This document shows, piece by piece, positions 4,984 through 62,536 of a stretch of DNA of 64,000 bases. Positions within the stretch are counted from its first letter, which is position 1, and each line of letters begins with the position of its first letter. The position numbers were made by a program, and so were the translations under genes. The notes beneath the pieces are model-generated. The model was not told the origin of the DNA. It worked only from the letters and a program-made list of their open reading frames with translations, and searched no databases. This stretch comes from Bacilli bacterium (GTDB lineage Bacteria > Bacillota_I > Bacilli_A > RF39 > UBA660): NCBI GenBank assembly GCA_017541325.1, contig JAFXZI010000014.1, positions 45,741 through 109,740 on the forward strand. The letters are read 5' to 3'.

Positions 4984-5018
4984 AATATTCACCTACTTTA
5001 ATAATAACATTTTGTATA

Positions 5019-12764: not shown

Positions 12765-13460
12765 TTAACTTAGTTTTAAATATTCTATTATTACCGGTGT
12801 AAGAATTAGTAATAATATTAATGGTATATAAAATAATACCGATATAACAGAAACCTTTACAGGTATCTTGTTAATGATTGCTTTTATTTTTAATACTTGT
12901 CTTTCTCTTATATAATCAATTTGAGTATATATATCTTCAATAATATCATTACCTAAAGTATTAGATTCAGATATATGAAGAATAATACTATTTACTTCAT
13001 CTGATGGAATTCTCTCTCTTAATGAATCAAGTGCTTCGTTAAGACCTTTTCCATATTTCATTTCTTCTAAAGTAATTTTAAATTCATTAGATAAATCATT
13101 ATCTACATTTATAGTTGCAACTTCTATAGAATCAACTATGCTTTTTCCTGATTCTAAGGAAAGTGCCATTACTTCAAAGAATTCCATAGCATTATACTCT
13201 AAATTATCTTTTCTTTTATTTATTGGAATCTCAATTAAATAATAAGTAATTAATTTAAAATAAATAAAAGTAATAATCGGACTAAGTAAATATCCCCAAT
13301 CAAGCATATATAATAACATGAAAAATATAATTAGAGAAGAAAAAGTTCTAAAGTTAAGAAAGAATATACTACTCATATTACTTTTTCCCATTTTTAATTT
13401 CTTTTCAAATTCTTCTATTTTTTTTCGAGGATAAATATAATACCAAAATTTATTTTTCAT
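12765..13460 (-). CDS. tadC: Tad/type II secretion F-family inner-membrane platform protein (TadC-like)
   Basis: 231 aa. T2SSF-type soluble domain (FFEVMALSLESGKSIVDSIE...LNEALDSLRERIP) flanked by TM helices. 4-nt overlap with the upstream gene. Confidence 0.75.
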   Translation of the reverse strand: MKNKFWYYIYPRKKIEEFEKKLKMGKSNMSSIFFLNFRTFSSLIIFFMLLYMLDWGYLLSPIITFIYFKLITYYLIEIPINKRKDNLEYNAMEFFEVMALSLESGKSIVDSIEVATINVDNDLSNEFKITLEEMKYGKGLNEALDSLRERIPSDEVNSIILHISESNTLGNDIIEDIYTQIDYIRERQVLKIKAIINKIPVKVSVISVLFYIPLILLLILTPVIIEYLKLS

Positions 13461-14446
13461 AATTTCACCTCGATGTATACTATTTTTCTAATTATTATTA
13501 TATAGAATACATATAACATTATTATTAACACAAATGCTAAAAATCCTATGGTTGTAGTAAATAAAGTTACAAAGTATGCTGGATTAAGTAATAATAAGAA
13601 TAAAACTAATATCGGTGGCATTGAAACTAAAATACGATAAACGAATCTAGCTTGAGAAGAATTACTTTTAAGTTCTTCTCTTAATTTTTTTCGTGCTAAT
13701 GCATTTTTTTCAATAGAATCAAATACAGATACAATGTTTCCACCAGTTTTACTTAATACACTAATTGAACTAGTTAAGTATGTAGCTTCAACACTTTTTA
13801 CTCTTTTACTAAATCTTTTAAAAGCTTCTTCTATATCTAATCCAAATTTAATATCTTCACTTATACGTTTAAACTCTATAGATATAGGTCCTTGCATCTC
13901 TTTAGCAACTAAGTCTATAGCTTGAATAATACTTTTTCCTGATTTAAAAGCATTATTCATTATTACTATTGCTTCTGAGATATCATTATCTAGTCTATTA
14001 TCTTCATATTTTCCAAGTACATATAAATAAATATCATATAAGAAGAATCCTGCTAAGAAAGATATTAGAATATTTACGATAGTTAGAACATTTTCTTTAG
14101 CAAATGAATTACATATAAGTAATAATAAACATAATAATCCTATAAATATTTTTCTACTAATGTAATTCATATTTGTAAGAAGTTTTTTACTACCTGAATA
14201 CTTTATATATTTTTTACTATAATCATCAAATACATGAGTTTTTATTAGTCTCCTAGATAGTTTTTCTTCTATATTTCTATAACTACTTACTAAAACATCA
14301 ACAATAGAAAGAGTATCATTATCATAATCTACAGTATAATTATTAAATCTTTTAGTTAATTTATAACTGTTATATGATTTTATAAATAACCATACCAATA
14401 ATAGAATTAAACATATTAACAATAATACTAATAAATATAATTCCAT
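13457..14446 (-). CDS. tadB: Tad/type II secretion F-family inner-membrane platform protein (TadB-like)
   Basis: 329 aa. T2SSF domain (MNNAFKSGKSIIQAIDLVAKEMQGPISIEFKRISEDIKFGLDIEEAF) with N- and C-terminal TM helices. Confidence 0.75.
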   Translation of the reverse strand: MELYLLVLLLICLILLLVWLFIKSYNSYKLTKRFNNYTVDYDNDTLSIVDVLVSSYRNIEEKLSRRLIKTHVFDDYSKKYIKYSGSKKLLTNMNYISRKIFIGLLCLLLLICNSFAKENVLTIVNILISFLAGFFLYDIYLYVLGKYEDNRLDNDISEAIVIMNNAFKSGKSIIQAIDLVAKEMQGPISIEFKRISEDIKFGLDIEEAFKRFSKRVKSVEATYLTSSISVLSKTGGNIVSVFDSIEKNALARKKLREELKSNSSQARFVYRILVSMPPILVLFLLLLNPAYFVTLFTTTIGFLAFVLIIMLYVFYIIIIRKIVYIEVKL

Positions 14447-14459
14447 ATTTTACTCCTTT

Positions 14460-15812
14460 CTATTTTTTCTTAGTTGTAGTCTTTTTAGTAATTTTATTTT
14501 TTGCTTTAGATTCAAACATATCTAAAACAATTCCTTTATTTTTAATTTTTTCATATATTTTTGGTACATTTTCATAAAGAATAAATTCTCCGTTTACTTC
14601 TTTATTTTCAGTTATACCATGCTTTAAGAATGCAAATATATCTTCAATAATAATATTTTCTCCATCAAATCCAGTTATTTCTGAAATATTAGTAACTTTT
14701 CTTTTACCATCACTTAATCTTTCAACCGATATTACTATATCAATAGCACTATCTATATACCCTCTAATAGCTTTAATAGGCAATTCTACTTCGCTCATAA
14801 GAATCATTGTTTCAAGTCTATTTAATGCATCTTTTACTCCGTTAGCATGTAGAGTGGTTAATGATCCATCATGACCTGTATTCATCGCTTGTAGCATATC
14901 AAACGCTTCTTTACCACGAACTTCACCAACTATTATTCTATCAGGACGCATACGAAGAGAGTTTCTTACTAAATCTCTTATTGTTATTTCTCCTTCTTTT
15001 TCATAGTTTTCAGTTTTAGTCTCAAGTGAAATAACATGTTCTTGTTTAAGACGAAGTTCAACTGCATCTTCAATAGTAATTATTCTCTCATCATTAGGAA
15101 TAGATCCTGAAAGAACATTTAAAAGTGTTGTTTTACCAGAACCAGTTCCTCCACATATTAAGATATTTAATCTTGCTTTAATACAAGCATCTAAGAAAGT
15201 AGCCATATATGGAGTTAATGTACCATTTCCTATTAAACTATCCATATCTTCAACATCATCTCTAAATTTACGAATAGTTACAACTGGCCCCTTTACTGAT
15301 AATGGTGGAATAATAGCATTTATTCTAGATCCATCAGGAAGACGAGAATCTACCATTGGGTTACTACTATCAATAGTTCTACCTAGTGGTTGAATGATAC
15401 GACTTACTGTTCTTATTATATGTTCATCATTAATAAATGAAACATCATAATCACGAGATATTATACCATCTACTTCAATATATATTTCATCAGGAGAATT
15501 AATCATTATCTCTGTTACATTTTTATCTTTTAATAATTCTGTAATAGGTCCAAATCCATTTAATTCATTATTAATAAGATTTTTTAAATAGTCTCTTTGT
15601 TCATTTAAAAGATCATATTCAACTGCAATTCTATCTATTACTTCTTCTATATTTTCTTCTTCTATTTCATGAGAATCAATTAATTCTTGAATAATCTTAA
15701 TACGTAATTTATCAAGTTCTTCTTTATTCTCAAAAATATCATAATCAGTATTAGTATAAGTATTGGAACTATTATCTTCTAAATTGAACTCTTCCATCCA
15801 ACTATTATTCAT
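14460..15812 (-). CDS. tadA: CpaF/TadA-family secretion ATPase
   Basis: 450 aa. Walker [13 protein letters not shown], Walker [13 protein letters not shown], and His box [12 protein letters not shown]. Confidence 0.9.
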
Positions 15813-16563
15813 AATCTTCCTCCTCTACTAAACTACGTATATTATTACTAAATGTTTCATATTCTTTTTTAGCTTCACCAGTAAATATTTCATTAAAATT
15901 AATTATTTTTTCATCCATAACTAATTCATTATAATTATTTATAAATAATTTATTACTTATAGAATAATCTAATTTTTTAATTACTGTTTTTATATCATAA
16001 ATATCATAATTATCTTTAATATCTCGATATGATTTATTTAGTAGTACAACAACATTATCTACTTTCATATTTTTAGTTATAGAAATGAAACTCTTATTAA
16101 TTTCTAAATTATAAGCATCATCTCCAACTATATCTATAATCTTCATACTTTTATCAAAAAGAAGCATATTAAGTGGGCTTAAAGTATTATTTGTATCAAT
16201 TACTATATATTCATATGAATACATTAATAAATCTAAAACTTGAGACAATGCTTTTACATCTATTTTAGATGATAATCTCATATCTATAGGAGCAGGAATA
16301 AAAGATAAGTTATCTCTTACATAATAAGTATATGGAGTAGAACTTTCATATTTTTTATTTCTTAAATCATCACACATATTATAAATAGTCTTTTTAGGTT
16401 TAATACCTAGTGCAAAAGCAAGATTTCCTCCATATAAATCTAAATCTATTAAAAGAGTACTTTTATTTTTACTTAAAATATCTGCAATCATCATTGAAAC
16501 AGTAGTTTTACCTACTCCACCTTTCATAGATGTTACAGTTATTATCTTAGCTTTATTCTTCAT
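15805..16563 (-). CDS. ParA/MinD-type ATPase (CpaE/TadZ-like pilus localisation protein)
   Basis: 252 aa. Deviant Walker A SMKGGVGKTTVS. 8-nt overlap with the ATPase gene. Confidence 0.75.
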   Translation of the reverse strand: MKNKAKIITVTSMKGGVGKTTVSMMIADILSKNKSTLLIDLDLYGGNLAFALGIKPKKTIYNMCDDLRNKKYESSTPYTYYVRDNLSFIPAPIDMRLSSKIDVKALSQVLDLLMYSYEYIVIDTNNTLSPLNMLLFDKSMKIIDIVGDDAYNLEINKSFISITKNMKVDNVVVLLNKSYRDIKDNYDIYDIKTVIKKLDYSISNKLFINNYNELVMDEKIINFNEIFTGEAKKEYETFSNNIRSLVEEEDYE

Positions 16564-17341
16564 CTAACCAACTCCTATTTTTATTATAATTATTTATTAT
16601 ATTATTTTCTGTTAATAACATATCATATGATTTTACATATTTAATATTCTTAGTATTAATAATTAAATCTCCACTTAAATTATCTATTTCTTTTATAAAG
16701 TCTCCATTTAAATATAGACGTGCTTTGTTAGTACCAACTAAATCTATAATATTTCTTTCATTAACTGGACCAATTAAAATATCATTTAAATACAGACTAT
16801 TATTACTTATAAAGAACCTACTATTACCAATCATAAATTGAGTATCATCTAAATTAGTAAAACCAATTTCTAAAGAATAATTTTCTAAATCAAAATTCTT
16901 TATATTAATTACACCATTAATTATGTTGTAGCCTCTACCATCTAAACTATTTACTTCATTATTATTTATTTCAAAATACATTAAAATATTACTTGTATAT
17001 TTTACTTCTTTTTCTGATGTAACAGTATATTTATCCATACCTATAATTTTTCCAAATATAGGTTTTATATCTTTATGCGTTTTTATATAAATAGATCTGT
17101 TTTCTATTTTTACTTCATCTATAACGATATCTTCATCATTTAAACTATATAATAATTTAATATCTTCATTAGAAACATCAATCTTTTTATTTAAACTAGT
17201 TAAAATATCTTTATTAACGTTATCTAAATAATTTTTATTATAAAACATCAAAGATGAATCTATAATAAAAGCTAAAGCAAGTGTAATAATAGGTAGTAAA
17301 AGTAAGAATAATACCAGTACTTGTCCTTTATTATTCTTCAT
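16553..17341 (-). CDS. TadG/TadE-like pseudopilin-type protein
   Basis: 262 aa. N-terminus MKNNKGQVLVLFLLLLPIITLALAFIIDSSLMF resembles the Flp-pilus TadE/G-like N-terminal segment. Overlaps both neighbouring genes by 11 nt. Confidence 0.6.
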   Translation of the reverse strand: MKNNKGQVLVLFLLLLPIITLALAFIIDSSLMFYNKNYLDNVNKDILTSLNKKIDVSNEDIKLLYSLNDEDIVIDEVKIENRSIYIKTHKDIKPIFGKIIGMDKYTVTSEKEVKYTSNILMYFEINNNEVNSLDGRGYNIINGVINIKNFDLENYSLEIGFTNLDDTQFMIGNSRFFISNNSLYLNDILIGPVNERNIIDLVGTNKARLYLNGDFIKEIDNLSGDLIINTKNIKYVKSYDMLLTENNIINNYNKNRSWLDEE

Positions 17342-17684
17342 TATTAATAGTCCTTTCTACTTTAACACTATATGGATCTTTTATTATTCTATTAATTCCT
17401 GGAGTCATTAAATCAACATCTTTAGTAATAATAATTGTTGTAATAGAACCCTTATCAGTAATATCAACATTAATATTTTTGTATCCAATACTAGCTAGAT
17501 ATGACTCTATTTCATCATTATCACTATTCTTTTGATATAGTGAAATAACTTCATTACTAACTCCTTCTAATTTACTATTTTCAAGTATTATTCTTCCTAA
17601 ATCTAAAAATGAAAAGAGAAGTAATATTATTACTGGTAATATAAGAACAAATTCAATAAGTGCTTGACCCTTATTATTCTTCAT
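17331..17684 (-). CDS. TadE-like pseudopilin / candidate pilin subunit
   Basis: 117 aa. MKNNKG|QALIEFVLILPVIILL has Gly-1/Glu+5 and the TadE-type EFxLxxP motif. GGAAGGTG RBS. Confidence 0.7.
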   Translation of the reverse strand: MKNNKGQALIEFVLILPVIILLLFSFLDLGRIILENSKLEGVSNEVISLYQKNSDNDEIESYLASIGYKNINVDITDKGSITTIIITKDVDLMTPGINRIIKDPYSVKVERTINNEE

Positions 17685-24127: not shown

Positions 24128-25699
24128 TTATAAATTAAGTTCTTTAGTTGTCAACTCTTTAGTTGCTTCAAGTTCAGGATCAGGATCTGGTTCTACTGGC
24201 GGTTCACCATTTCTTCTTCTTTCCCTTCTTGGCTCTACGATTAATTGTTTTTCTTCTTTTTTCTTTTCTACTTTTTCTTCTATTATTTTATCTTCTTTAG
24301 GATTCTTTTCTTCTTTTTTTCTTTTTATCCATAATACAAGTATTACTATTAAAATAGCAAATATTAAGAATAATTCTAATAATAAGAAGAAACTAACTCT
24401 TTTATCTTTTTCAATAACGATTGTATATTTACTAGACTCTCCATCAATTCCTGTAATAGTTATCTCTATTTCATCCCCAACTTTTAAGTCTTTTATTAAT
24501 TCTTTATTATTATTAATATCAGGATTCATAGTAACTGTTACTTCATCTTCCGGACTTACTGTTGTGTAATAAATTTTTAAATCTTCAAATTTCAATCTAT
24601 TATAATTTATCTTATATTGATAATTATTTTTATCAAAACTTATATCATATCCTTTTATAGATAATGATTTTAACATCTTACTAATACTTTTATCTAGATT
24701 GTTAACTATTACTGTATATGTAGCTTTTTCTCCTTTTTCAGAAGTAACTATAATTTTAAATTCATTATCTCCAACAAGTAATTTTTGTGGACCAGTAACT
24801 TCTGCTTTAGCATTAGGATCATTTGTTATCGCTTCTATTTTAACAGTCTCTGCTTTATATTTCTTAATAGTATATTTATATTTATTGGATTTAAATTCTT
24901 CAAGAGCAGTACCATCTATTGTAATTCCTGATAAAGTTGCATCAGTACTTCTTGTATCTTCTCTAGTAATATTAAGAGTATATATTTGTTCAGTACCACT
25001 TTCAGATACAACATTTAATTTAATTGTATTATTTCCATATTCCAAATTAACTGTTCTAGGTCCTAAACCATTTTTAAATGATGCTTTAGAAGATGTAGTT
25101 GTTGCTTCTATCTTAGCATTTGCAATATCACCTGTAACACTAACATCATAAGTTAAATTTTCAGAATGAAATTTTTCTACACTCACACCATTTATTTTAA
25201 TACCAGATAAACTAGCATCACTTGATTTGATGCTGATGGTTTTAGTGATTTTAGTACCCAGTTGTGTCACATCTCCAGCAGCATTTGTTATTTGTGTTGT
25301 ATTAAATGTTAGATTTGCACTATTTGCAGTTGGTTTTGATGTTACTTTGAAAACTAGCCTTCCAACTTCATTAGAGCAATTACCGGTTTTACAATTAAAT
25401 ACTACATCTTTACCAGAAATCCCGGGTTCTGATTGATTTTCCCAATTCCCAGATTGTTTAATAGCTTTAAAAGTAAACACCTTAGAATCATAACTAATTT
25501 GGGTAGTAAATGTAGTACCAGTCGTTGCTTGTATCCCATTAACATAAATTATATATTCAAATTCTTCAGATGGAGATACTGCAGTCGGACCAGTTATATT
25601 AACTTGAGGTTGACTTTGTGCATAAGCAAAAATAGGCATAAAAAATGCTAATATGCTTACTAGAATCCCCTTTACTTTCATCTTTTTTATTCTATTCAT
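24128..25699 (-). CDS. cell-surface protein: signal peptide, Ig/cohesin-like domain, three cadherin-like beta-sandwich repeats, C-terminal TM anchor
   Basis: 523 aa. Signal peptide ends ...FMPIFAYA. Repeats begin DASLSGIKINGVSVEKF, DATLSGITIDGTALEEF and LKSLSIKGYDISFDKNNYQY. TM segment FFLLLELFLIFAILIVILVLWI is followed by a charged tail. Confidence 0.7.
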   Translation of the reverse strand: MNRIKKMKVKGILVSILAFFMPIFAYAQSQPQVNITGPTAVSPSEEFEYIIYVNGIQATTGTTFTTQISYDSKVFTFKAIKQSGNWENQSEPGISGKDVVFNCKTGNCSNEVGRLVFKVTSKPTANSANLTFNTTQITNAAGDVTQLGTKITKTISIKSSDASLSGIKINGVSVEKFHSENLTYDVSVTGDIANAKIEATTTSSKASFKNGLGPRTVNLEYGNNTIKLNVVSESGTEQIYTLNITREDTRSTDATLSGITIDGTALEEFKSNKYKYTIKKYKAETVKIEAITNDPNAKAEVTGPQKLLVGDNEFKIIVTSEKGEKATYTVIVNNLDKSISKMLKSLSIKGYDISFDKNNYQYKINYNRLKFEDLKIYYTTVSPEDEVTVTMNPDINNNKELIKDLKVGDEIEITITGIDGESSKYTIVIEKDKRVSFFLLLELFLIFAILIVILVLWIKRKKEEKNPKEDKIIEEKVEKKKEEKQLIVEPRRERRRNGEPPVEPDPDPELEATKELTTKELNL

Positions 25700-33764: not shown

Positions 33765-33796
33765 AAAAAGGAAGTTTAATTACTTCCTTTTTATTA
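33764..33796. terminator. bidirectional terminator between the convergent tmcAL and giant pilin genes
   Basis: Stem aaaggaagt/acttccttt (33767-33775/33782-33790), flanked by an A-run upstream and a T-run downstream. Confidence 0.75.
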
Positions 33797-36700
33797 TTAA
33801 TAGTAAACAGTTGCTCCGTTACATGCTACATCTCCATAAGAAGCTGTACATGAGCTTGTTGGATAATATGTACCTGTTCCTGACCAACCATTCCATATTT
33901 TACATCCCCAAGCTGCACTATAACATGATTTTGCACATGTATCACATACAAACTCGGTTGTAGATTGATAATGACATGTACAGAATTGTTGTGAATCATC
34001 AGTACCTGTTCCTGTATCAGAACAAGAACATACGTGAGGACTACAGAACGCTCTACATCTTGCTTCAGCTCCTGTACCTCTAAAGGCATTGTCTATTGTT
34101 TTTCCAACACAGTTACAATCTTCTGTTCCACATACACTTGAACTTGGTCCACCCCAATTATGTTGATAACATGTATTCTTTTGATACATATATGCTGATG
34201 ATACAGATACAGTACAACTATTTGTTAGCCCTGCACCGTTTGTACATGTATATGTTTTATCAGATGTTTGATTAGTATTTGAGAAAGAAGCTGTTACAAC
34301 ACCACTTGTACCGTCTGCACATGTTGCTCCTGTTGTTACCCCATTTGAATGATATTGATGGGATTTACTTGGTGTACATGACGGAACAGATGCATCTCTC
34401 TTAAATTTTATTGAACATGTATTAGTGTTTCCAGCATTATCTTTTATATGTCCTGTATATGTTACACTTTTTGTATCAGTAGTATGTGATGCTGTTTTGC
34501 TTCCAGTTACTGAATCTATTCCATATGATGCTGTTCCACTTAAGTCATCTCCAGTATTACCTTTTCCACTTACAAAGCTAACACTTACATTTGATGTATA
34601 CCAATTATCATTTCCAACTGTTCCAGATGTAGTTAACTTACAATATGGTTTTGTTTTATCTAGTTTAAACCAAATCTCACATTTATTTGTTCTTCCTGCT
34701 TTATCCTTTATATATCCATAATATGTTATTCCTGATGTTGTTGTATTAGTAGATTGTGTTTTCTTTGTGCTTTTATTATAACTTGGCGTTGCTGATGTTG
34801 TTATATCCCATGATGCTTTATCACTCATTGAATTATCTTTTTTAACATCTTCATATTTTTTAAATGTTACATCTACATTTCCTTCTTTATACCAATTATT
34901 ATCTCCTTTAGTACCAGTAAGTTGTAATTCACATGTAGGATTTTGTGAATCTTTTTTAACTACACTACTACAATCTTTTAAGTTTCCAGCATTATCTCTT
35001 ACATATCCATACCATGTATGACTTGTTGTATCTTTTGTTTGAGTTCCTGTATCATTTCCATTATATTCTAATCCACTTGAATTTTTTAATCCATAGTTTC
35101 TTGTTCCTGATTTTGTATATTTATTTGCAATTTCAGCATTATCATCTTTTGTTAATTTAACTGGAACATTTTCCCAGAAATAATCATTTTCATGTCTTAC
35201 GACTCTATCACTACCAAATGTTATTGTACATTTTGGCTCTGTTTTATCTATATTTGTTATTTCTCTTGTTTCTGGTAAACTTTCATTTCCTGATGTATCT
35301 TTTACTTTCATTATTACTGTTGCAAGAGTTGGATAAGTATAACTATTATCTTTTTGCCATGGATTATTATCAAATTTGTAGTCTCCTCTTCCTGATACTG
35401 AGTCTGTTGCATTTATATATAATGTTACATCTCTATTTGTATAATATCCTACTGTATCATCTCTTGTTAATAATTCTATTCTTGTTACATTATTTAACTC
35501 TGTTGCACTTGCAAATGATATTTCTAAATTACTAAATGAAGTTGGAGTTGCAAAATAGTTTCTTGCCTTTGATGTTGATGTTGGAATTGTTACAGTTAAT
35601 GTTTTATTTTTTACTGTATCTTTTATTGTTGCAGTTCCACCCTTTCCTGATGCCATATATACATATACTCCATATATATTACCGTACTCACCAGTTATGC
35701 TCGTTAAACTAATTTTTGTTGATGTTTTAGAAGCAAGTAAATCAGCTTTATCTTTTTCTGTACCTACTCCATATACTACTGTTCCATAGTCTATTGATTT
35801 AATAACTGGAATTACTGGATCATATGGAATTTCTCTATAACATGTTCCTACATTTCCAGCATTATCTTTTACATATCCATATACTGTTGTTATACCATCT
35901 TGTACTTCATATTCTGTTTCTTTATTAAAGTCGTAATTACTTCTACTAACTCCCATTCCATATGTTGCAATTCCACTTGTATCTCTTTCATCTACTTTTA
36001 ATTTAACTACTGGTCTTGGACTTGCTTTATACCATCCATTTTCCCCCATAGTTCCTTCAACTTCTAATGTACATTTTGGTGGTGTTTTATCAATATAAAC
36101 ATCTACTGGACACGCATTTGTTTTTCCAGCATTATCGGCAATTGTTATTGTTCCAGTTTCTCCTTCTTCAGTGAACTTCTTTGTAAACGTATCTTGAACA
36201 CATCCTGTACAATTATCACTACATCCAATAGTTATAGTTCTATCTTTATTTGTCCACACTTTAGAATCTCCTTGTGCAACACCACAAAGAGGAGGTTCAT
36301 CATCCATTTCTTCAGTACAAACACGTTGTGGTGGAATTCTTTTACTTAAATCTTCACATTTTCCTGATTGATAATCTCCACAAACTAAACATACTTCATA
36401 TGATAAATTTGTTATGTTTGGTCCTTCATTTTTAACTAAAACGAAACTTTGGAAAGGATCACAATCTTTAGAATCATCTTTAGGATCTCTTAACTTATTT
36501 GAATATCCTGTAGATATTAATTCTGATAAAGTTACTTTTTTATACTTATCTACTCCAGGAATGCAAATAGTATCATTTTTTTCTACACATTCAGTCATTA
36601 GATTTTGTGCAGAAACCTTCATATCAGCTTCATACATTTTATAAGTATTATTTCTTGTATCAATTATGTACCTTGAAATAGCAGGGAATAATAAACCCAT

Positions 36701-36943
36701 TAATAAACCTAGCAATACTACTACTGCTAGCATTTCTATCAAAGTAAAACCAAAACCAATTGTACCATTCTTTTTTTCATGTTTCTTTGGAGTTTGGTCT
36801 TTTCTTTTTATATTTGTTTGTAAAACTTTAATATCTTTTTTAGGTTTTTTAGTAGTTTTTGCTTCATTAGTAACCTTTTTTGTAATCTTTTTATTGTTAA
36901 TACTACTACTTTGTCCCCTTTTTTTAGTTTTATTCTCACTCAT
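33797..36943 (-). CDS. giant modular type IV pilin-like protein (65-aa Lys-rich leader, pilin N-terminal helix, tandem Ig-like modules, Cys-rich C-terminus)
   Basis: 1048 aa. AGGTGA (36948-36953) lies 4 nt before the only in-frame ATG. The ...NGTIGFG|FTLIEMLAVVVLLGLLMGLLF prepilin motif starts at residue 66. Four to six ~95-aa modules each begin P-x-C and end [YH][VI][KR]D[NK]AG[NR]xxxC. The last ~125 residues contain 16 Cys. Confidence 0.8.
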   Translation of the reverse strand: MSENKTKKRGQSSSINNKKITKKVTNEAKTTKKPKKDIKVLQTNIKRKDQTPKKHEKKNGTIGFGFTLIEMLAVVVLLGLLMGLLFPAISRYIIDTRNNTYKMYEADMKVSAQNLMTECVEKNDTICIPGVDKYKKVTLSELISTGYSNKLRDPKDDSKDCDPFQSFVLVKNEGPNITNLSYEVCLVCGDYQSGKCEDLSKRIPPQRVCTEEMDDEPPLCGVAQGDSKVWTNKDRTITIGCSDNCTGCVQDTFTKKFTEEGETGTITIADNAGKTNACPVDVYIDKTPPKCTLEVEGTMGENGWYKASPRPVVKLKVDERDTSGIATYGMGVSRSNYDFNKETEYEVQDGITTVYGYVKDNAGNVGTCYREIPYDPVIPVIKSIDYGTVVYGVGTEKDKADLLASKTSTKISLTSITGEYGNIYGVYVYMASGKGGTATIKDTVKNKTLTVTIPTSTSKARNYFATPTSFSNLEISFASATELNNVTRIELLTRDDTVGYYTNRDVTLYINATDSVSGRGDYKFDNNPWQKDNSYTYPTLATVIMKVKDTSGNESLPETREITNIDKTEPKCTITFGSDRVVRHENDYFWENVPVKLTKDDNAEIANKYTKSGTRNYGLKNSSGLEYNGNDTGTQTKDTTSHTWYGYVRDNAGNLKDCSSVVKKDSQNPTCELQLTGTKGDNNWYKEGNVDVTFKKYEDVKKDNSMSDKASWDITTSATPSYNKSTKKTQSTNTTTSGITYYGYIKDKAGRTNKCEIWFKLDKTKPYCKLTTSGTVGNDNWYTSNVSVSFVSGKGNTGDDLSGTASYGIDSVTGSKTASHTTDTKSVTYTGHIKDNAGNTNTCSIKFKRDASVPSCTPSKSHQYHSNGVTTGATCADGTSGVVTASFSNTNQTSDKTYTCTNGAGLTNSCTVSVSSAYMYQKNTCYQHNWGGPSSSVCGTEDCNCVGKTIDNAFRGTGAEARCRAFCSPHVCSCSDTGTGTDDSQQFCTCHYQSTTEFVCDTCAKSCYSAAWGCKIWNGWSGTGTYYPTSSCTASYGDVACNGATVYY

Positions 36944-36962
36944 AGTATCACCTACTATAACA

Positions 36963-36971
36963 ATTATATCA
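36963..36971 (-). promoter_or_regulatory. putative extended -10 promoter (TGaTATAAT) of the giant pilin gene
   Basis: The minus strand reads tatttTTGATATAATtgtt, just downstream of the pyk terminator. Confidence 0.45.
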
Positions 36972-41554: not shown

Positions 41555-41771
41555 AAATACCTCCTAAAAATGCAAAAAGATGATACCAGTATAAGGACGA
41601 ATCTCTCGTGGTACCACCTTAATTCATAACAATAGTTATCTCAAATATCTTAACGCGATATAACGTTCTATGTTTATATAAAGTGTCTTCAATACATATT
41701 AGCTTAAGTATTTTCACCAACCATACTTTCTCTAAAAGCAATTACATATTTACTCCTCTTTCATAGAAGTT
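41555..41771 (-). promoter_or_regulatory. T-box leader of the hisS-aspS operon
   Basis: Minus-strand RNA has the T-box AAUUAAGGUGGUACCACG (plus 41607-41620). A terminator stem GGUACCA/UGGUAUC with U-run precedes AGGAGG. The candidate specifier context UUGAAGACACUU (plus 41683-41687 = GACAC) overlaps GAC and CAC. Confidence 0.8.
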
Positions 41772-53044: not shown

Positions 53045-53121
53045 TGGTGACCAGTACGGGATTCGGACCCGTGTATCCTGCCGTGAAAGGGCAGTGTGTT
53101 AAACCGCTTCACCAACTGGCC
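53045..53121 (-). tRNA. tRNA-Glu (anticodon UUC), CCA encoded
   Basis: Hand-folded cloverleaf. Acceptor GGCCAGU/ACUGGUC, anticodon arm CUGCC-CUUUCAC-GGCAG, T arm ACGGG-UCCGAAU-CCCGU, then A-CCA. Confidence 0.9.
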
Positions 53122-53126
53122 ATAAA

Positions 53127-53203
53127 TGGCGCCTCAACTGGGACTTGAACCTAGGACCCCTTGATTAACAGTCAAGTGCTCTAACCAACTGAGCTATTGA
53201 GGC
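53127..53203 (-). tRNA. tRNA-Asn (anticodon GUU), CCA encoded
   Basis: Acceptor GCCUCAA/UUGAGGC, D arm GCUC-AGUUGGUUA-GAGC, anticodon arm CUUGA-CUGUUAA-UCAAG, then G-CCA. Confidence 0.9.
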
Positions 53204-53206
53204 AAC

Positions 53207-53283
<77 letters not shown>

Positions 53284-54985: not shown

Positions 54986-55019
54986 ATAATAAAAACTAAT
55001 AATCAATTAAGATTATTAG
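54986..55019 (-). terminator. rho-independent terminator after the 846-aa gene (overlaps the stop)
   Basis: 9-bp stem ctaataatc/gattattag (54996-55004/55011-55019) with a T-rich run on the minus strand. Confidence 0.6.
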
Positions 55020-57556
55020 TTTAATTCTGTAGGTGGTTCTTCCAAAGCTTGTTCACCATCTAATTCTCTTTTTTCTCCAATTGTTGTTGTATTTACTTCT
55101 GTCATCATAACTTTAACAGTTTCTCCCTCTTTATCTGGTGTAACATTAGAGGTTTTATGTGATCTATATCTTTTTGCAGTTGTTGAATTATCATAAGTAG
55201 TCTTACTACTTGAATAATCTTTTTCAGCAATTTCTGCAGCTTTTGATTTTACTTGCCACTCAGTATAAGCATTACTTCTTCTCTCGTTATATGCTTCTGT
55301 TGATTCTCCTTCATATTGACCAGTTTCAATTACTTCACGATATTTATTCTCTGCAGCTTGTGCAGCGACAATAGCATTTTTCAAATTATCTCTACTTGTT
55401 TCCAGTGCCTTTCCACCTAAATTAGTTTTTCTATATTGAGCATCAGCTCTACTTTTGTTAACACTATTTTGGAAGGCTCTATTTACACTTCCTTTTAATC
55501 TATTAGCATCTAATTGAGTCTCACTATCAATTGTATTCCAAGCATTTCTTAATTGGTCGTTCGCAGCACTTCTATATCTTTCGTTCATACCACGAACACC
55601 TTCTTTAAGACTTCCTCTAATTCCAGCACCACTAGCAAGTCCTGATACTAAACCAGATCCAAATCCTAAAACACCACCAGTTACATTTCCTAAGAAACTA
55701 CCATTATGTGTATCAAGTCCAAAGAATTTATTTAAGTATTTAGGTGACTGATAAACAAATAGTAATAAGCCAACTATTAAGAATGATTTTAAATATAAAA
55801 GTCTAAGTGGCGTTATACCAGTACCTTCTGCACCTTCCCAAGTAATAAATAAATCATTTATTTTTATTTCAGAAGCTAAATATAAAATCATATACATTAA
55901 GCCAATTTTAATAAATAAATCTACAAATGTAATTGCTGTTTCTTTTAACCATTCTTTTAATGGATCATTTTCATCTCTATATGGACTAATATTAAGAAGG
56001 ATTGGAATTGGTGCTAACATTTCTAATACTAAAAGTCTAAAGAACCTAACTCCAGCACTTACTGTTATTCCAACAAGAAGGAATAATGTAATCATTCCAA
56101 CTATAGTAGATAATAAATATCTATATTCATAACTATATCCAGGATTTTTACCATCTCTTCCAAATGGACTTACATCATTTATATGTTTTACAAAATCATC
56201 AATTGATGCAATATCTTTACTTCCATCAATAGATGCAAATTCTTGTTTTTTATTAGTATAATTTGGATGAAAGAATGGAGATAATACAACTACTGCTAAA
56301 TCATCCGATATTTTTTCTATATCTTTCTGCGCTTCATCTTCGTTTTGACCCAATAATACTTTTGGAACTATTGGTATAAAAGTATATTGAATTCTATATG
56401 CAAGTTCAAATAAACCAGGAGTCATTAATAAAAGTATTAACATTGCAATTGTTTTAAATATTAAAGTTCTACTTCCTTTAAATCTATCCGTTAATTCATC
56501 TGGATTAAACATATATCTTATAAATGTTAAACTAAGTCTAAATAGCATTATAATACCTAAAACTACATATATCTTATTTCTAACATTACTAACAATATCT
56601 GTATATATTCTAAGTCTTGCTATATCGAATAAACCTTGAATTACCCAAATAATAGATGAATATATATAATAATCTAAAGTAAAGAATACACTTCTTACAA
56701 CATTAACAAATTTATATCCTTTAAATATTGTTAATTCTGTAGATTGAACATTTATATTTCCTAGAACTGCACTGCTATATATTTCTCCAGTTTCATAAAG
56801 TAATAACGCTTTATTTTCTGATACAGTAAGAGATACTAAGTTATTATTACCAACTTTCATTTCATTAGATATATAATATGTTTTTTTATGTTTTCCTCTT
56901 AAATCAAATATATATATTACATTTCCATTTTTCTCAACAGAATCAAATATCTTTTCTCCAGTAGAATTATGAGTTATTAAATAAACATATCCCGTACTAT
57001 AACTTAAATCATTTCTAGTACCTCTAATATCTACATCAAAATTATTTTCTAACTTTTTCTCTTCGCTATAGACACTACCTTTTTTACCATCGTATGTAAA
57101 ATATCTATTAAATCTATTAGAAAAAGCAATATGACTACCAGATAAATTTATAGTACTTGTCTCAGTTAAAGTTTCCATATCAATAACTGAATATTGTCCA
57201 CTGCCTTTACTTGCTAATAAAGTATTAGTATTAGGATCATATGAAATACTTGCACTACTACTTAAATTAAATCTTTTTTCTTCTAAAACACTATATGTAT
57301 TTTTATCTAAAAACATAAGTGTACCATTACCTCTAGATACAACTAAATAATCTCTAGTTGAAGCAATAGATTTAAAAGTACTATTACCACCTAAGCCATC
57401 AGTCTTAGATAGTTTTTTTTCTAAACTAATATCTATTACTTCTGTAAGTCTTTTTTTAGATAATCCTCTTAAGTTATTTTTAATATCTTCAACCGCAAAA
57501 ACACTTACAGGAATCATAAGTAATAATAAAATTAATACTAAATATCTTCTCCTCAT
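55016..57556 (-). CDS. large polytopic membrane protein: signal peptide, beta-propeller-like ectodomain, VirB6/TrbL-like multi-TM core, Gly-rich segment, coiled-coil/disordered tail
   Basis: 846 aa. Signal peptide ends ...MIPVSVFA. Repeated strand-like blocks (YLVVSRGNGTLMFLD, LLASKGSGQYSVID, VIYIFDLRG, ALLLYETGEIY). About 8 TM helices (res ~285-640), then GNVTGGVLGFGSGLVSGLASGAGIRGS. AAGGTGG RBS. The family assignment is tentative. Confidence 0.55.
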   Translation of the reverse strand: MRRRYLVLILLLLMIPVSVFAVEDIKNNLRGLSKKRLTEVIDISLEKKLSKTDGLGGNSTFKSIASTRDYLVVSRGNGTLMFLDKNTYSVLEEKRFNLSSSASISYDPNTNTLLASKGSGQYSVIDMETLTETSTINLSGSHIAFSNRFNRYFTYDGKKGSVYSEEKKLENNFDVDIRGTRNDLSYSTGYVYLITHNSTGEKIFDSVEKNGNVIYIFDLRGKHKKTYYISNEMKVGNNNLVSLTVSENKALLLYETGEIYSSAVLGNINVQSTELTIFKGYKFVNVVRSVFFTLDYYIYSSIIWVIQGLFDIARLRIYTDIVSNVRNKIYVVLGIIMLFRLSLTFIRYMFNPDELTDRFKGSRTLIFKTIAMLILLLMTPGLFELAYRIQYTFIPIVPKVLLGQNEDEAQKDIEKISDDLAVVVLSPFFHPNYTNKKQEFASIDGSKDIASIDDFVKHINDVSPFGRDGKNPGYSYEYRYLLSTIVGMITLFLLVGITVSAGVRFFRLLVLEMLAPIPILLNISPYRDENDPLKEWLKETAITFVDLFIKIGLMYMILYLASEIKINDLFITWEGAEGTGITPLRLLYLKSFLIVGLLLFVYQSPKYLNKFFGLDTHNGSFLGNVTGGVLGFGSGLVSGLASGAGIRGSLKEGVRGMNERYRSAANDQLRNAWNTIDSETQLDANRLKGSVNRAFQNSVNKSRADAQYRKTNLGGKALETSRDNLKNAIVAAQAAENKYREVIETGQYEGESTEAYNERRSNAYTEWQVKSKAAEIAEKDYSSSKTTYDNSTTAKRYRSHKTSNVTPDKEGETVKVMMTEVNTTTIGEKRELDGEQALEEPPTELN

Positions 57557-57609: not shown

Positions 57610-57641
57610 TATAAAAAAAGAAAAAGACTTTACAAGTCTTA
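57610..57641 (-). terminator. rho-independent terminator after the TPR gene (end of the MoxR/VWA operon)
   Basis: Stem aagact/agtctt (57624-57629/57635-57640) followed by a long T-rich run on the minus strand. Confidence 0.65.
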
Positions 57642-58310
57642 ATAGTTTTTTCCTTTATATTGATATCTAGTATCTTCTTTTCTATTGATGTCGTCTCTTT
57701 CTCTATCATTTCTATCTTGTTGCGTTTGTTTTTGTTGTTCTTTTATTTGTTCTTCTAATTCTTTTTCTTTAGAATCATCATCATTATTATTATTTTGATT
57801 TTCTTTATTATTATCTTTATCTCCAGTACTTCCACCTTTTGAAGATTTTTCTTGTTTTAATTTTTCTAACTCATTATATATTTCTTGTGAATTACTATCT
57901 TTACCACTTACTAAGTCTTTTGCAGCACAATTATTAACTAAAAGAATATCTTGAATATATTCTATATCATCTATTAAATCTTCTTTAGTTAAGTTAAGTA
58001 TTTTCATATATGAAAGTGATAAATTATTTCTAACTTTGCATTCTCTTTTTTTAGATACTGTTTTTAAAGCTTTTTCATATTCTAAAATAGCATCACTATA
58101 TTCTCCTAAATTATATAAATTATTTCCTTTATTATAGTATGCTATATAACTTTCAGGAAAATTTAAAATAAATAATTGTTCTACTAAACTACTATTATAA
58201 TAACCTTTATTACTTTTAGAAATATATGCTTCATTAATTACATATCTAATTGATAAATGAAATAAGAATAAAGACATAATTACTAGTACAAATATTATTA
58301 TTTTTTTCAT
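57639..58310 (-). CDS. TPR-repeat membrane-anchored protein (BatC-like) with an acidic/basic low-complexity tail
   Basis: 223 aa. N-terminal TM helix, TPR-like AYYNKGNNLYNLGEYSDAILEYEKALK, and a C-terminal D/E/K/Q/N-rich region. ATGA overlap with the upstream gene. Confidence 0.65.
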   Translation of the reverse strand: MKKIIIFVLVIMSLFLFHLSIRYVINEAYISKSNKGYYNSSLVEQLFILNFPESYIAYYNKGNNLYNLGEYSDAILEYEKALKTVSKKRECKVRNNLSLSYMKILNLTKEDLIDDIEYIQDILLVNNCAAKDLVSGKDSNSQEIYNELEKLKQEKSSKGGSTGDKDNNKENQNNNNDDDSKEKELEEQIKEQQKQTQQDRNDRERDDINRKEDTRYQYKGKNY

Positions 58311-59245
58311 AATCTTACCTTCCTATAATTATATAATTCTATAAGTAAAAGAATACCTATTAAAGGAGTTATAAAATAATATGTATCTTTATAAATATAC
58401 TTTTTTTGATCTCCCTTAACACTATTTTTTTCTTTACTAATTTCATTTATACTTTTATCTACTTCATTTGTACTAGTCATATGAATATAGTCAATTCCAA
58501 GATCTAATGCAATATTTTTCATATTATCTTCATCTATTTTAGAGAATGCTTTTGTACTTCTATAATTTTCATCATAATAATATAAATCTTCTGCTTCTCC
58601 GTAATAAGTATCTATCTTTATAGTAGATCCTTTTGTCGTTCCATATCCTAAAACTGCTCCACCATCTATATATTTTTTTAAATGATTTAGACTATCTTCT
58701 CCAGAGTCACTTGTATTTTCTCCATCTGTAAAAATATATACTATTACTTTATGATCAGTATCTTTTTCTTTTTCTAACATTTTTTCAAGTTGATTTCTAA
58801 ATAAAGTTACTTTTGTACCTCTTGCATAATATTTATTGATTACAGTTATAGAATCAACCGATGCTGAAATAGCATTAGCATCTTTTGTCATAATCATTCT
58901 TGTATAGGCATTATTATCAAAAGTTATAGTAGCATAACTTGCTCCTGCAGTTTTATCAATTATATAATTAATATCTTTTTTTACTTGATCAAGTCTAGTA
59001 GGTTTAACATCATTCGCAGCCATACTAAGAGTTGAATCAACAATAAATATAATATCTAAATTGTTTTCAAATACTGTTATATCTCCATTAGGTAGCATTA
59101 TTCTTAAATTAACGATAAATAATATTACTAATAATAAAAATCTAATTAGTTTTTTTATTCCTGTACTATAAATTAATACCATCAATAGTATAAATATAGA
59201 TAAAGGAATCATTATCCATAAAGATATAATAGGATTAATTATCAT
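58307..59245 (-). CDS. von Willebrand factor A domain membrane protein (BatB-like)
   Basis: 312 aa. Two N-terminal TM helices, MIDAS IIFIVDSTLSM, and a C-terminal TM helix. Confidence 0.75.
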   Translation of the reverse strand: MIINPIISLWIMIPLSIFILLMVLIYSTGIKKLIRFLLLVILFIVNLRIMLPNGDITVFENNLDIIFIVDSTLSMAANDVKPTRLDQVKKDINYIIDKTAGASYATITFDNNAYTRMIMTKDANAISASVDSITVINKYYARGTKVTLFRNQLEKMLEKEKDTDHKVIVYIFTDGENTSDSGEDSLNHLKKYIDGGAVLGYGTTKGSTIKIDTYYGEAEDLYYYDENYRSTKAFSKIDEDNMKNIALDLGIDYIHMTSTNEVDKSINEISKEKNSVKGDQKKYIYKDTYYFITPLIGILLLIELYNYRKVRL

Positions 59246-60231: not shown

Positions 60232-60677
60232 TCTTCTATTACCTTCCTTGTTTTATTAATGGAAGAAATAATGTCTCCCTTATTATTCTTTGAAAATTCT
60301 GGTTCATAATACTCTTTAATTAGATCATATAAAATACCAGTATCTTTTTCTTTTATTTCCGATAAACTACTTTTAAGTAAATCTATATCTGTAGCATCTA
60401 ATACAAAACTTCTTATTAAAACACTCAATCTATTATAAGCAGTTCTACTTTTTATTTTATTAGAATTTATTTCATTATAAAGACTATCTATTTGATATAG
60501 ATATTTCTTTTTTATTATTAAAATATCTTTAGTTATAATATTATTCTTTGGGGTTGGTTTATGTTTAAAAAGTACATATAAAAAATATGCTACTAAAGAT
60601 ACAAGTAATATTATAAAAAGAATAAAACCAACGATATTATAACTAAATTGTCCTTCTAAACTAACTTTTGACTGCAT
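60222..60677 (-). CDS. small single-pass membrane protein of the MoxR/VWA operon (position of DUF4381-type proteins)
   Basis: 151 aa. One TM helix (IVGFILFIILLVSLVAYFLYVLF). Overlaps both neighbouring genes. Confidence 0.5.
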   Translation of the reverse strand: MQSKVSLEGQFSYNIVGFILFIILLVSLVAYFLYVLFKHKPTPKNNIITKDILIIKKKYLYQIDSLYNEINSNKIKSRTAYNRLSVLIRSFVLDATDIDLLKSSLSEIKEKDTGILYDLIKEYYEPEFSKNNKGDIISSINKTRKVIEEWK

Positions 60678-62516: not shown

Positions 62517-62536
62517 ATACACTTCACCTATTATAA

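What the first reader, a model, noticed from the sequence alone, without database searches (positions are those of the whole stretch)
33797..36943. 1048-aa modular 'giant pilin' with a 65-residue lysine-rich leader, tandem Cys-bracketed Ig-like modules and a 16-Cys tip
Seen in the sequence:
- A canonical type IV prepilin cleavage and assembly motif, G|FTLIEMLAVVVLLGLLMGLLF (Gly-1, Glu+5), begins only at residue 66.
- The only in-frame ATG with an RBS (AGGTGA at 36948-36953) lies 65 codons upstream, which gives a leader with about 22 Lys/Arg residues (nt 36749-36943). As far as I know, prepilin leaders are normally about 5-30 residues.
- After a pilin-like head, the protein has four clear ~95-aa modules plus two degenerate ones. 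Each opens with P-x-C (TPPKC, TEPKC, QNPTC, TKPYC, SVPSC), contains G-[DE]-N-[GN]-W-Y, and closes with [YH]-[VI]-[KR]-D-[NK]-A-G-[NR]-x(3)-C. This suggests one disulfide per module. The pattern resembles the bacterial Ig-like/OmpL47-type 'GNNGWY ... DxAGN' domains.
- The last ~125 residues (nt 33800-34198) hold 16 Cys.
- The gene has its own promoter and terminator and sits among housekeeping genes, with no pilus machinery adjacent.

Established knowledge: modular pilins with grafted adhesin modules are described in, for example, Streptococcus sanguinis, but they are far smaller.

Inference: this could be a filament-tip or surface-anchored adhesin. The long basic leader might not be a cleaved signal at all; it could be a cytoplasmic anchor or regulatory tail.
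Basis: partly seen in the sequence, partly recalled or inferred. Interest (0 to 1): 0.65.

Follow-up and report, generated by a model that had tools for sequence, protein, structure and literature searches.

The report
Giant modular pilin, 65-residue basic leader
This gene from an uncultured gut bacterium encodes a very large surface protein with the N-terminus of a type IV pilus subunit, a stalk of antibody-like domains, a sugar-binding-like domain and a fast-evolving cysteine-rich tip; it is a new, oversized variant of the known "modular pilins", and its cleavable leader is unusually long.

Summary
ORF 33797-36943(-) encodes 1048 aa. It has a canonical class III signal peptide (G65|FTLIE, Glu+5) after a 65-residue leader of net charge +16.

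The long leader is real. The extended -10 promoter, the RBS and the ATG are homologous to those of the closest homologues, which have 5-aa leaders (MNKKG|FTLIEM). The window carries an in-frame insertion of about 55 codons, and no other canonical start lies upstream of Gly-1.

Leaders of 30-85 aa, rich in Lys, occur in about 7% of a large family (479 clusters at E<=1e-30; proteins up to 3792 aa).

Mature protein, from the base outwards:
- a 54-residue helix and a small pilin-like head
- an Ig-like Cys-rich module
- five Ig-like modules, four of them bracketed by a Cys pair
- a 16-Cys tip that is hypervariable

Best reading: a modular type IV pilin adhesin, displayed on a filament tip or anchored in the membrane by its pilin helix.

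No prepilin peptidase or PilB/C genes were seen. A Tad-type locus lies 17 kb away. A paralogous family has the same head on an ordinary membrane anchor.

This is a new variant of a known kind, of moderate interest.

The parts
36963..36971 (-). Extended -10 promoter element TGATATAAT
   Evidence: Read. The same TTTTTGATATAAT block precedes the start of the 58%-identical homologue in L002. A TGATATACT variant is present in L001 and TGATATAAT in L010. The simple scan did not rank it, because no -35 element matches.
36948..36953 (-). Ribosome-binding site AGGTGA, 4 nt before the ATG
   Evidence: The homologous GTAGGTGA(C/T) lies before the ATG in L002 and L001.
36749..36943 (-). 65-codon Lys-rich leader (M1-G65; 19 K, 2 R, 2 D, 3 E). 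Residues 1-10 (MSENKTKKRG) correspond to the ancestral short leader; residues 11-65 are an in-frame insertion.
   Evidence: and comparison. The reading frame is not open by chance. The sequence is identical in three other assemblies.
36791..36797 (-). CCAAACT, deleted in one assembly (L004). The deletion frameshifts the leader away from the pilin body.
   Evidence: The intact allele is found in L011 (plus 10 similar places), L012 and L013.
36299..36748 (-). Pilin module, residues 66-215: hydrophobic alpha1N with Glu+5, one continuous 54-residue helix (residues 68-121), and a small disulfide-rich beta head
36092..36298 (-). Cys-rich Ig-like module ('cysA'), residues 216-284
35828..36091 (-). 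Ig-like module M1, residues 285-372, Cys291 and Cys368
35492..35827 (-). Galactose-binding-like / CBM32-CBM6-like jelly-roll domain, residues about 373-484, no Cys
35264..35491 (-). Degenerate Ig-like module M2', residues 485-560, no Cys
   Evidence: 19 bits, partial match to the module HMM.
34400..35248 (-). Three tandem Ig-like modules: M3 (566-663), M4 (665-760) and M5 (762-848). Each has one N-terminal and one C-terminal Cys.
   Evidence: DNA repeats spaced 264 and 291 nt apart, 61-72% identical.
33800..34399 (-). Distal end: small Cys module M6 (849-915) and the 16-Cys tip (916-1048)
   Evidence: Only 26-30% identity to homologues that are 74-86% identical in the basal modules. No Pfam family matches.
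33765..33792 (.). Bidirectional intrinsic terminator shared with the convergent tmcAL-like gene

Best explanation
The gene encodes a giant modular type IV pilin that serves as an adhesin.

Shown:
- Transcription starts from a conserved extended -10 promoter, and translation starts at ATG 36943.
- The product has a class III signal peptide.
- In the mature protein a pilin helix and head carry a stalk of seven beta-sandwich-type modules, one of which is a lectin-like jelly-roll, and a hypervariable Cys-rich tip.

Inferred:
- The Lys-rich leader stays in the cytoplasm (positive-inside rule) while the hydrophobic alpha1N spans the membrane.
- A prepilin peptidase cuts after Gly65.
- The 983-residue mature protein is then lifted out of the membrane by a type IV filament machine. 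Being too bulky for the filament body, it sits at the filament tip, where it presents its glycan-binding domain and its variable tip to host or food-particle surfaces.
- The long leader is an in-frame, low-complexity expansion of a segment that is discarded after cleavage. Such a segment is constrained only to stay hydrophilic, basic and free of stops.
For: The start and the leader are real:
- The promoter, RBS and ATG are homologous to those of short-leader homologues.
- The insertion is visible in the protein alignment.
- There is no alternative start codon.
- The open frame is not due to chance.
- The 1048-aa gene is identical in independent assemblies.

The pilin features are conserved:
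- The pattern [GAS]-1 ... Glu+5 was found in 206 family members. The members without it either belong to the branch with a different N-terminal anchor or are truncated.
- A charged residue inside a plain membrane anchor would not be kept without a function. The paralogous branch that has an ordinary anchor has lost the motif.

Adhesin features:
- A CBM32/CBM6-like domain.
- Ig-like stalk modules.
- Identity to the closest homologue falls from 74-86% at the base to 26-30% at the tip.
- A homologue's tip is a TSP1 domain scoring above Pfam's cut-off.

Other support:
- Tip display of modular pilins is the published model (PMC8179133).
- Long basic leaders recur with good ribosome-binding sites in other members. 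This lineage therefore tolerates them.
Against: - No prepilin peptidase (GxGD motif) and no PilB/PilC-type genes were found in the 64-kb window, in 10 kb beyond its left end, or in the loci of nine homologues.
- The only filament machinery seen is of the Tad type, which normally assembles short Flp pilins.
- Family genes are scattered among housekeeping genes, often several per genome. They are not in pilus operons, where minor pilins usually lie.
- As far as I know, cleavage of a 65-residue leader has never been demonstrated for any prepilin.
- One assembly carries a frameshifted allele.
Confidence: 0.45

Rival explanations
1. The protein is a membrane-anchored surface stalk and not a filament subunit. 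The pilin helix, cleaved or not, simply holds the protein in the cytoplasmic membrane. The chain of seven beta-sandwich-type modules carries the lectin-like domain and the Cys-rich tip through the peptidoglycan to the cell surface.
For: - A paralogous family of about 760 aa has the same alpha1C, head and Ig modules on an ordinary N-terminal membrane anchor without Gly-1 or Glu+5 (hhalign probability 96%, E 3e-9; N-termini).
- Family genes are orphans, present in several copies per genome and away from pilus genes.
- The organism makes peptidoglycan: Ddl and a Mur ligase are in the window. A long stalk would therefore be useful.
- No PilB, PilC or PilD genes were seen.
Against: - Glu+5 and Gly/Ala-1 are kept throughout the pilin-type branch but lost in the branch with the ordinary anchor. 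This argues that processing and/or assembly is under selection in the pilin-type branch.
- The genome was not searched completely for pilus machinery.
Confidence: 0.33
2. The leader is not removed. The 65 Lys-rich residues persist as a functional cytoplasmic tail, for example one that binds anionic lipids or nucleic acid, or that delays or regulates processing. The protein would then be a bitopic membrane protein.
For: - Leaders of 30-85 aa with about 38% K/R and no internal Met recur in 15 of 206 family members, in different branches.
- Two neighbouring genes in one organism have leaders of 65 and 48 aa behind strong ribosome-binding sites.
- Leader length is not tied to proxies of overall AT-driven amino-acid bias.
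- The residues just before Gly65 (GTIGFG) are unusual: they are uncharged.
Against: - The closest homologues manage with 5-residue leaders.
- The long leaders share no visible motif. By composition they look like low-complexity expansions that keep the charge density of the short leaders.
- Gly-1 is retained next to the hydrophobic stretch in all of them.
Confidence: 0.15
3. The long leader is an annotation artefact or the gene is decaying. On this view the true start lies near the motif (TTG at L68, as one gene call has it), or the gene is a pseudogene.
For: - One assembly (L004) has a 7-nt deletion in the leader.
- There the gene caller produced a 65-aa ORF plus a 981-aa ORF starting at TTG L68.
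Against: - A TTG start at L68 would remove Gly-1, Phe+1 and Thr+2.
- No ribosome-binding site or canonical start lies between M1 and L68.
- The promoter, RBS and ATG are conserved with homologues.
- The intact 3147-nt ORF is identical in L011 (plus 10 similar places), L012 and L013.
- An open frame of 1048 codons at 26% G+C does not fit decay.
Confidence: 0.05

Closest known systems
Modular type IV pilins, e.g. Streptococcus sanguinis PilB (vWA module) and PilC (lectin module) (PMC8179133, PMC9934059)
   Same: [quoted passage not shown] A lectin-like module and a monoderm host are shared. The presumed role is adhesion, with display at the filament tip.
   Different: - The mature protein has 983 residues, against 454 for PilB.
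- It carries seven beta-sandwich-type modules plus two Cys-rich distal parts (M6 and the 16-Cys tip), not one grafted module.
- The leader has 65 residues, against 7.
- The gene is an orphan among housekeeping genes, not part of a pil cluster.
- The modules are not recognised by curated domain models.
Large minor pilins with extra structural domains: ETEC CofB, V. cholerae TcpB, Thermus ComZ, T2SS GspK (as discussed in PMC8179133)
   Same: A pilin module carries additional beta-rich domains, and the proteins are thought to sit at the filament tip.
   Different: Those proteins are encoded in their pilus or secretion operons, have one or two extra domains and have ordinary leaders. I found no sequence or fold match to them other than the pilin helix and head.
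Type IVb prepilins and S. sanguinis PilE1/PilE2, the pilins known for long leaders (PMC10191384)
   Same: The leader is hydrophilic and basic, ends in Gly, and is longer than the usual 5-10 residues.
   Different: From my own knowledge, those leaders are about 13-30 residues. Here the leader is 65, and up to 85 in the family.
Stalk-and-tip surface adhesins of Gram-positive bacteria built from tandem Ig-like domains (MSCRAMMs, Rib/alpha-like proteins; PMC6936399, PMC5817068)
   Same: A long rod of tandem Ig-like domains projects a variable binding region away from the cell. Covalent stapling of the domains is also comparable: Cys pairs here, isopeptide or thioester bonds there (the latter from my own knowledge).
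   Different: There is no Sec-type signal peptide and no C-terminal LPXTG sortase signal; the protein ends in ...ATVYY. Anchoring is N-terminal, through a pilin-type helix.
Tad/Flp pili (type IVc)
   Same: A Tad-type ATPase, platform proteins, TadE-like pseudopilins and an Flp pilin are encoded nearby. Their subunits also have Gly-1 and Glu+5.
   Different: Flp pilins are about 60 residues long with G|xxxxE[YF]. This protein has the G|FTLIE signature of type IVa, Com and T2SS pilins and is 17 times larger.

Membership tests
Type IV pilin (class III signal peptide; TIGR02532 / PF07963 / IPR012902) | Hydrophilic leader ending in Gly/Ala, followed by about 20 hydrophobic residues with Glu at +5 | tested here: met
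   G65|FTLIEMLAVVVLLGLLMGLLF. TIGR02532 scores 17.6 bits against a cut-off of 16.3. Pfam N_methyl scores 15.6, below its cut-off of 21.2.
Type IV pilin (class III signal peptide; TIGR02532 / PF07963 / IPR012902) | Short leader (about 5-30 residues in characterised pilins; the range is from my own knowledge) | tested here: not met
   The leader is 65 residues. The family median is 9.
Type IV pilin (class III signal peptide; TIGR02532 / PF07963 / IPR012902) | N-terminal helix of about 50 residues packed on a beta-sheet head ('lollipop') | tested here: met
Type IV pilin (class III signal peptide; TIGR02532 / PF07963 / IPR012902) | Leader removed by an A24 prepilin peptidase encoded in the genome | not testable with these tools
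   No hydrophobic ORF with a GxGD motif occurs in the window, in L005 or in homologue loci. The rest of the contig of about 324 kb and the rest of the genome could not be read.
Type IV pilin (class III signal peptide; TIGR02532 / PF07963 / IPR012902) | Polymerised by a type IV filament machine (assembly ATPase plus platform protein) | tested here: inconclusive
   A TadA/CpaF ATPase, two T2SSF platform proteins and a ParA/TadZ-like protein are encoded at 12765-16563. No PilB/ComGA-type ATPase was seen. Whether the Tad set handles this protein is unknown.
Modular pilin in the sense of Raynaud et al. 2021 (PMC8179133) | A pilin module fused to one or more modules that are not specific to pilus biology | tested here: met
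   A CBM32/CBM6-like jelly-roll and Ig/FnIII-like modules follow the pilin module.
   The whole protein gives no such Pfam or NCBIfam hit at E<=1. Module M5 alone scores 15.4 bits for HYR against a cut-off of 21.7. The generic Ig/FnIII relationship is weak: the module profile matches the FnIII domain of chitinase A1 at E 0.0015.
CBM32 / F5-8 type C / CBM6 (galactose-binding-like fold) | Beta jelly-roll fold superposable on solved family members | tested here: met
CBM32 / F5-8 type C / CBM6 (galactose-binding-like fold) | Sequence-level membership and a conserved sugar- or metal-binding site | tested here: not met
   No Pfam hit and no credible sequence match in the PDB. Binding-site residues were not examined.
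Thrombospondin type 1 repeat (for the Cys-rich tip) | Pfam TSP1 family score above cut-off | tested here: not met
   The target's tip has no hit. The tip of homologue P0010 scores 26.6 bits for TSP1_ADAMTS against a cut-off of 23.8.
Sortase-anchored Gram-positive adhesin or pilin | C-terminal LPXTG motif, hydrophobic stretch and basic tail | tested here: not met
   The C-terminus is ...CNGATVYY, with no LPXTG.
Flp/Tad pilin | Protein of about 50-80 aa with G|xxxxE[YF] | tested here: not met
   The protein has 1048 aa and G|FTLIEM. A genuine Flp (MRNNKKG|QALVEY) is encoded elsewhere.

The most novel reading that the evidence does not exclude
In a lineage of uncultured, AT-rich gut Firmicutes the type IV pilin has become a general chassis for giant glycan- and protein-binding adhesins. 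These are encoded as scattered orphan genes. A recurring subset carries polylysine-like cytoplasmic leaders of 30-85 residues, two to three times longer than any characterised prepilin leader. On this reading the leaders are functional: they act as a regulated pro-region that controls when the prepilin peptidase releases the adhesin for assembly. The proteins might be assembled by the only filament machine seen nearby, a Tad-type system, which is not known to handle G|FTLIE pilins.
Probability: 0.12. Interest if true: 0.7.

Novelty: new variant of a known kind. Interest (0 to 1): 0.45.

Why it matters
- **Modular pilins.** Modular pilins are a recent explanation of how simple type IV filaments gain new binding functions. 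This family extends the idea to proteins of 1000-3800 residues with long stalks and fast-evolving tips, in uncultured gut bacteria for which no adhesins are characterised.
- **A test substrate.** The 65-residue leader (up to 85 in relatives) could be used to ask whether prepilin peptidases care about leader length at all.
- **Anchor swapping.** The sister family, with the same head on an ordinary membrane anchor, offers a natural experiment on what the pilin motif adds.
- **Limits.** None of this overturns current understanding. It enlarges a known category and gives concrete constructs to test.

Tried and rejected
Alternative starts:
- An out-of-frame ATG sits in 'cATGAAAAAAAGAATGG'. With one extra A in the A7 run it would give an 11-residue leader. 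I rejected this: the A7 run is identical in all assemblies and the upstream ATG is the conserved one.
- TTG at L68 is the gene caller's choice in L004. I rejected it because it removes Gly-1.
- ATT at I63 has no ribosome-binding site.

Origin of the leader insertion: blastn against the window gave only A-rich, low-complexity noise.

Leader length as a by-product of AT-driven amino-acid bias: there is no association with FYMINK or GARP content.

Disulfide pairing from Cys co-occurrence:
- The within-module association and the association between adjacent modules are both strong, so this does not discriminate.
- Only the parity argument in the target favours pairs within a module. M1 and M3 each have two Cys and are flanked by Cys-free domains.

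Searches that led nowhere:
- Foldseek of the head model against the PDB found nothing significant.
- The profile of the central domain against PDB sequences gave only spurious hits.
- A search with the tip alone returned nothing, not even the protein's own cluster, so it is uninformative.
- The scan of genome contigs gave a single truncated relative in an 'uncultured Clostridium sp.' MAG.
- The look-up of the ORF at the window's right end, meant to extend the view, found no record.
- Regex scans for a prepilin peptidase and for PilB found nothing. These scans are weak tests.
- The literature searches found no description of this family or of leaders this long.
Full report
**1. What is at the coordinates**

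The ORF listing gives a single 1048-codon ORF at 33797..36943 on the minus strand. The window has 26% G+C.

The neighbours are housekeeping genes:
- Upstream on the same strand lie a T-box leader, hisS, aspS and pyk.
- Downstream lies a convergent HIGH-nucleotidyltransferase (tmcAL-like) gene.
- Ddl and a Mur ligase are also in the window, so the organism makes peptidoglycan.

The exact AspRS and CpaF proteins of the window are on record as MBR4262874.1 and MBR4262850.1 from a 'Bacilli bacterium' MAG, on a contig of about 324 kb. The same strain turns up in many gut metagenome assemblies.

**2. The pilin motif and the leader**

Residues 65-86 read G|FTLIEMLAVVVLLGLLMGLLF. This passes NCBIfam's cut-off for the prepilin-type cleavage/methylation domain and falls just short of Pfam's.

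The 65 residues in front hold 19 Lys, 2 Arg, 2 Asp and 3 Glu.

- The closest homologues (58% identity by BLASTP) begin MNKKG|FTLIEM.
- Their upstream DNA is homologous to the window's. The window reads TTTTTGATATAATTGTTATAGTAGGTGATACTATG. L002 reads TTTTTGATATAATTTGTATAGTAGGAATAGTAGGTGACGATATG (L001).
- The window therefore uses the ancestral extended -10 promoter, RBS and ATG.
- Its first ten residues (MSENKTKKRG) correspond to the ancestral leader. About 55 codons have been inserted in frame before FTLIEM.

Further support for the long leader:
- No in-frame ATG, GTG or TTG lies between M1 and L68.
- Only 0.12% of composition-matched shuffles of the leader remain free of stops.
- The intact 3147-nt gene is identical in L011 (which stands for 10 more similar places) and in L012. 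The 150 nt of the gene present in the partial locus L013 are also identical.

One assembly, L004, lacks 7 nt (CCAAACT, between CCAAA repeats). This splits the gene into a 65-aa ORF and a 981-aa ORF that the gene caller starts at TTG L68. That is the origin of database entry P0001. I treat it as a lone null allele or an assembly error.

**3. Long leaders recur in the family**
- Among 99 pilin-type hits of the first search, the median leader is 9 residues.
- A profile of the head region against 1.84 billion representatives finds 479 proteins at E<=1e-30 and 3888 at E<=1e-10. The 129 newly returned proteins among the 150 best hits are 204-3792 aa long.
- Across both sets, 15 of 206 members (7%) have leaders of 30 residues or more. 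The longest are 85, 65, 65, 62, 59 and 58 residues. Most are strongly basic and most have no internal Met.
- For P0067 I checked the DNA. A terminator, TGATATAAT, GGGGTGA and the ATG are followed by 65 codons with no other start. The next gene is another pilin-type protein with a 48-residue leader behind GGAGGTG.
- Leader length shows no association with proxies for AT-driven amino-acid bias. K/R density is the same in long and short leaders.

The expansions are therefore repeated and tolerated. They keep the one property a prepilin leader needs: positive charge on the cytoplasmic side (PMC10191384).

**4. Anatomy of the mature protein**

*Pilin module and first Ig-like module.* An AlphaFold2 model of residues 60-292, built on 29 homologues, has pLDDT 90.
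- It shows one continuous helix (residues 68-121), a small beta head and then a beta-sandwich.
- A sequence profile of this region matches solved type IV pilins over alpha1: geopilin at 1e-8 and S. sanguinis PilE1 at 6e-7.
- Foldseek found nothing significant.

*Ig-like modules.*
- A module HMM built within the family finds five copies in the target. Relatives have between 1 and 14.
- The module profile weakly matches an FnIII domain and antibody constant domains.
- No curated Ig-like family is reached.
- Four modules have one Cys near each end. Across the family, 385 modules have both Cys, 28 have neither and 17 have only one.
- In the target, M1 and M3 each carry two Cys and are flanked by Cys-free domains.

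*Distal end.* The last 125 residues hold 16 Cys.

*Gradient of divergence.* Against the closest homologue, identity by region is as follows:

| Region | Identity to P0002 |
|---|---|
| alpha1 + head | 74% |
| cysA Ig-like module | 86% |
| M1 | 84% |
| CBM-like domain | 60% |
| M2' | 80% |
| M3 | 69% |
| M4 | 41% |
| M5 | 44% |
| M6 | 26% |
| tip | 30% |

In the more distant homologue P0010 the tip is a thrombospondin type 1 domain scoring above Pfam's cut-off.

**5. Genomic context and machinery**
- The gene has its own promoter and a bidirectional terminator.
- The window holds a second pilin-type gene at 2929-4992 (687 aa, 9-residue leader, BspA leucine-rich repeats).
- It also holds a Tad-type locus at 12765-17684: two T2SSF proteins, a TadA/CpaF ATPase, a ParA/TadZ-like protein and two TadE-like proteins.
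- An Flp pilin gene lies 7.5 kb beyond the window's left end.
- I found no A24 peptidase motif and no PilB-type ATPase in the window, in that extension, or in nine homologue loci.
- Homologues sit in unrelated housekeeping neighbourhoods, sometimes four within 23 kb, and several lie next to spoIIGA-sigE.
- A family of about 760 aa shares the alpha1C, the head and the Ig modules, but has an ordinary N-terminal membrane anchor (hhalign probability 96%; context).

**6. Interpretation**

The protein fits the published category of modular pilins (PMC8179133). That paper reports more than 1200 such proteins and notes that many more escape detection because their modules lack signatures. I found no paper describing this family or leaders of this length.

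I favour a processed pilin displayed on a filament tip. The reason is that Gly/Ala-1 and Glu+5 are kept throughout the pilin-type branch and lost in the sister branch that has an ordinary anchor.

The membrane-anchored stalk model is nearly as good, given the orphan genes and the machinery not seen here.

A retained, functional cytoplasmic tail cannot be excluded.

The mis-annotation and pseudogene reading is rejected.

**7. Verdict**

This is a new, oversized variant of a known kind with one departure from the norm: its leader length. Interest is moderate.

Noticed in passing
window 2929-4992 (-): A second pilin-type gene. It encodes 687 aa with a 9-residue leader (MNIMKNQKG|FTLIEI) and BspA-type leucine-rich repeats, and it resembles HupY/LrrG adhesins weakly. 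It is another modular pilin in the same genome.
   Followed up: partly
window 12765-17684 (-); L005 18481-18672: A Tad-type locus: TadC-like and TadB-like proteins, a TadA/CpaF ATPase, a ParA/TadZ-like protein and two TadE-like pseudopilins (262 aa and 117 aa, MKNNKG|QALIEF). No prepilin peptidase is present. The Flp pilin gene lies about 7.5 kb outside the window, separated from the machinery by some 20 kb of housekeeping genes.
   Followed up: partly
window 36791-36797 vs L004: One metagenome assembly lacks the 7 nt CCAAACT, which lies between CCAAA direct repeats. The deletion frameshifts the leader. The stop of the resulting 65-aa ORF overlaps a TTG (TTGA) at L68. All other assemblies checked are intact.
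   Followed up: yes
P0077 and about 40 similar hits; L017 10001-12304: A family of about 760 aa starts MY(T/N)(D/E)EEE(R/K)RGLPIKTF..., followed by a membrane anchor. It shares the pilin alpha1C, the head and the Ig modules but lacks the cleavage/assembly motif. P0077 is followed by a 1525-aa ORF and then spoIIGA-sigE.
   Followed up: partly
L007, L008, L009 (genes at 10001 onwards): Three pilin-type homologues lie just downstream of spoIIGA-sigE (Peptidase_U4 plus a sigma factor). L007 carries four giant pilin-type genes within 23 kb. A link to sporulation is possible but untested.
   Followed up: no
P0010 residues 938-988: A bacterial pilin-type protein whose Cys-rich tip scores above Pfam's gathering cut-off for the thrombospondin type 1 domain (TSP1_ADAMTS, 26.6 bits; motif SWSSCSAACGAGTQTR).
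   Followed up: partly
L010 3438-4232: The gene next to P0067 is another pilin-type protein, with a 48-residue basic leader behind a strong RBS. Long leaders therefore cluster in that organism.
   Followed up: yes
window 57639-62522 (-): A cluster encoding a MoxR-type AAA ATPase, a DUF58 protein and two vWA proteins (Bat-like). It is followed by an 846-aa membrane protein at 55016-57556 with no family match.
   Followed up: no
window 24128-25699 (-): A 523-aa protein with a signal peptide, three cadherin-like beta-sandwich domains and a C-terminal membrane anchor. It is another candidate surface protein.
   Followed up: no
window 41590-41770 and 53048-53283 (-): A T-box leader upstream of hisS-aspS, and three tRNA genes.
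   Followed up: no
(tool behaviour): The word-indexed protein search with the 197-residue C-terminal piece returned no hit at all, not even the cluster that contains the identical sequence (P0001). The negative result says nothing about homologues of the tip.
   Followed up: no
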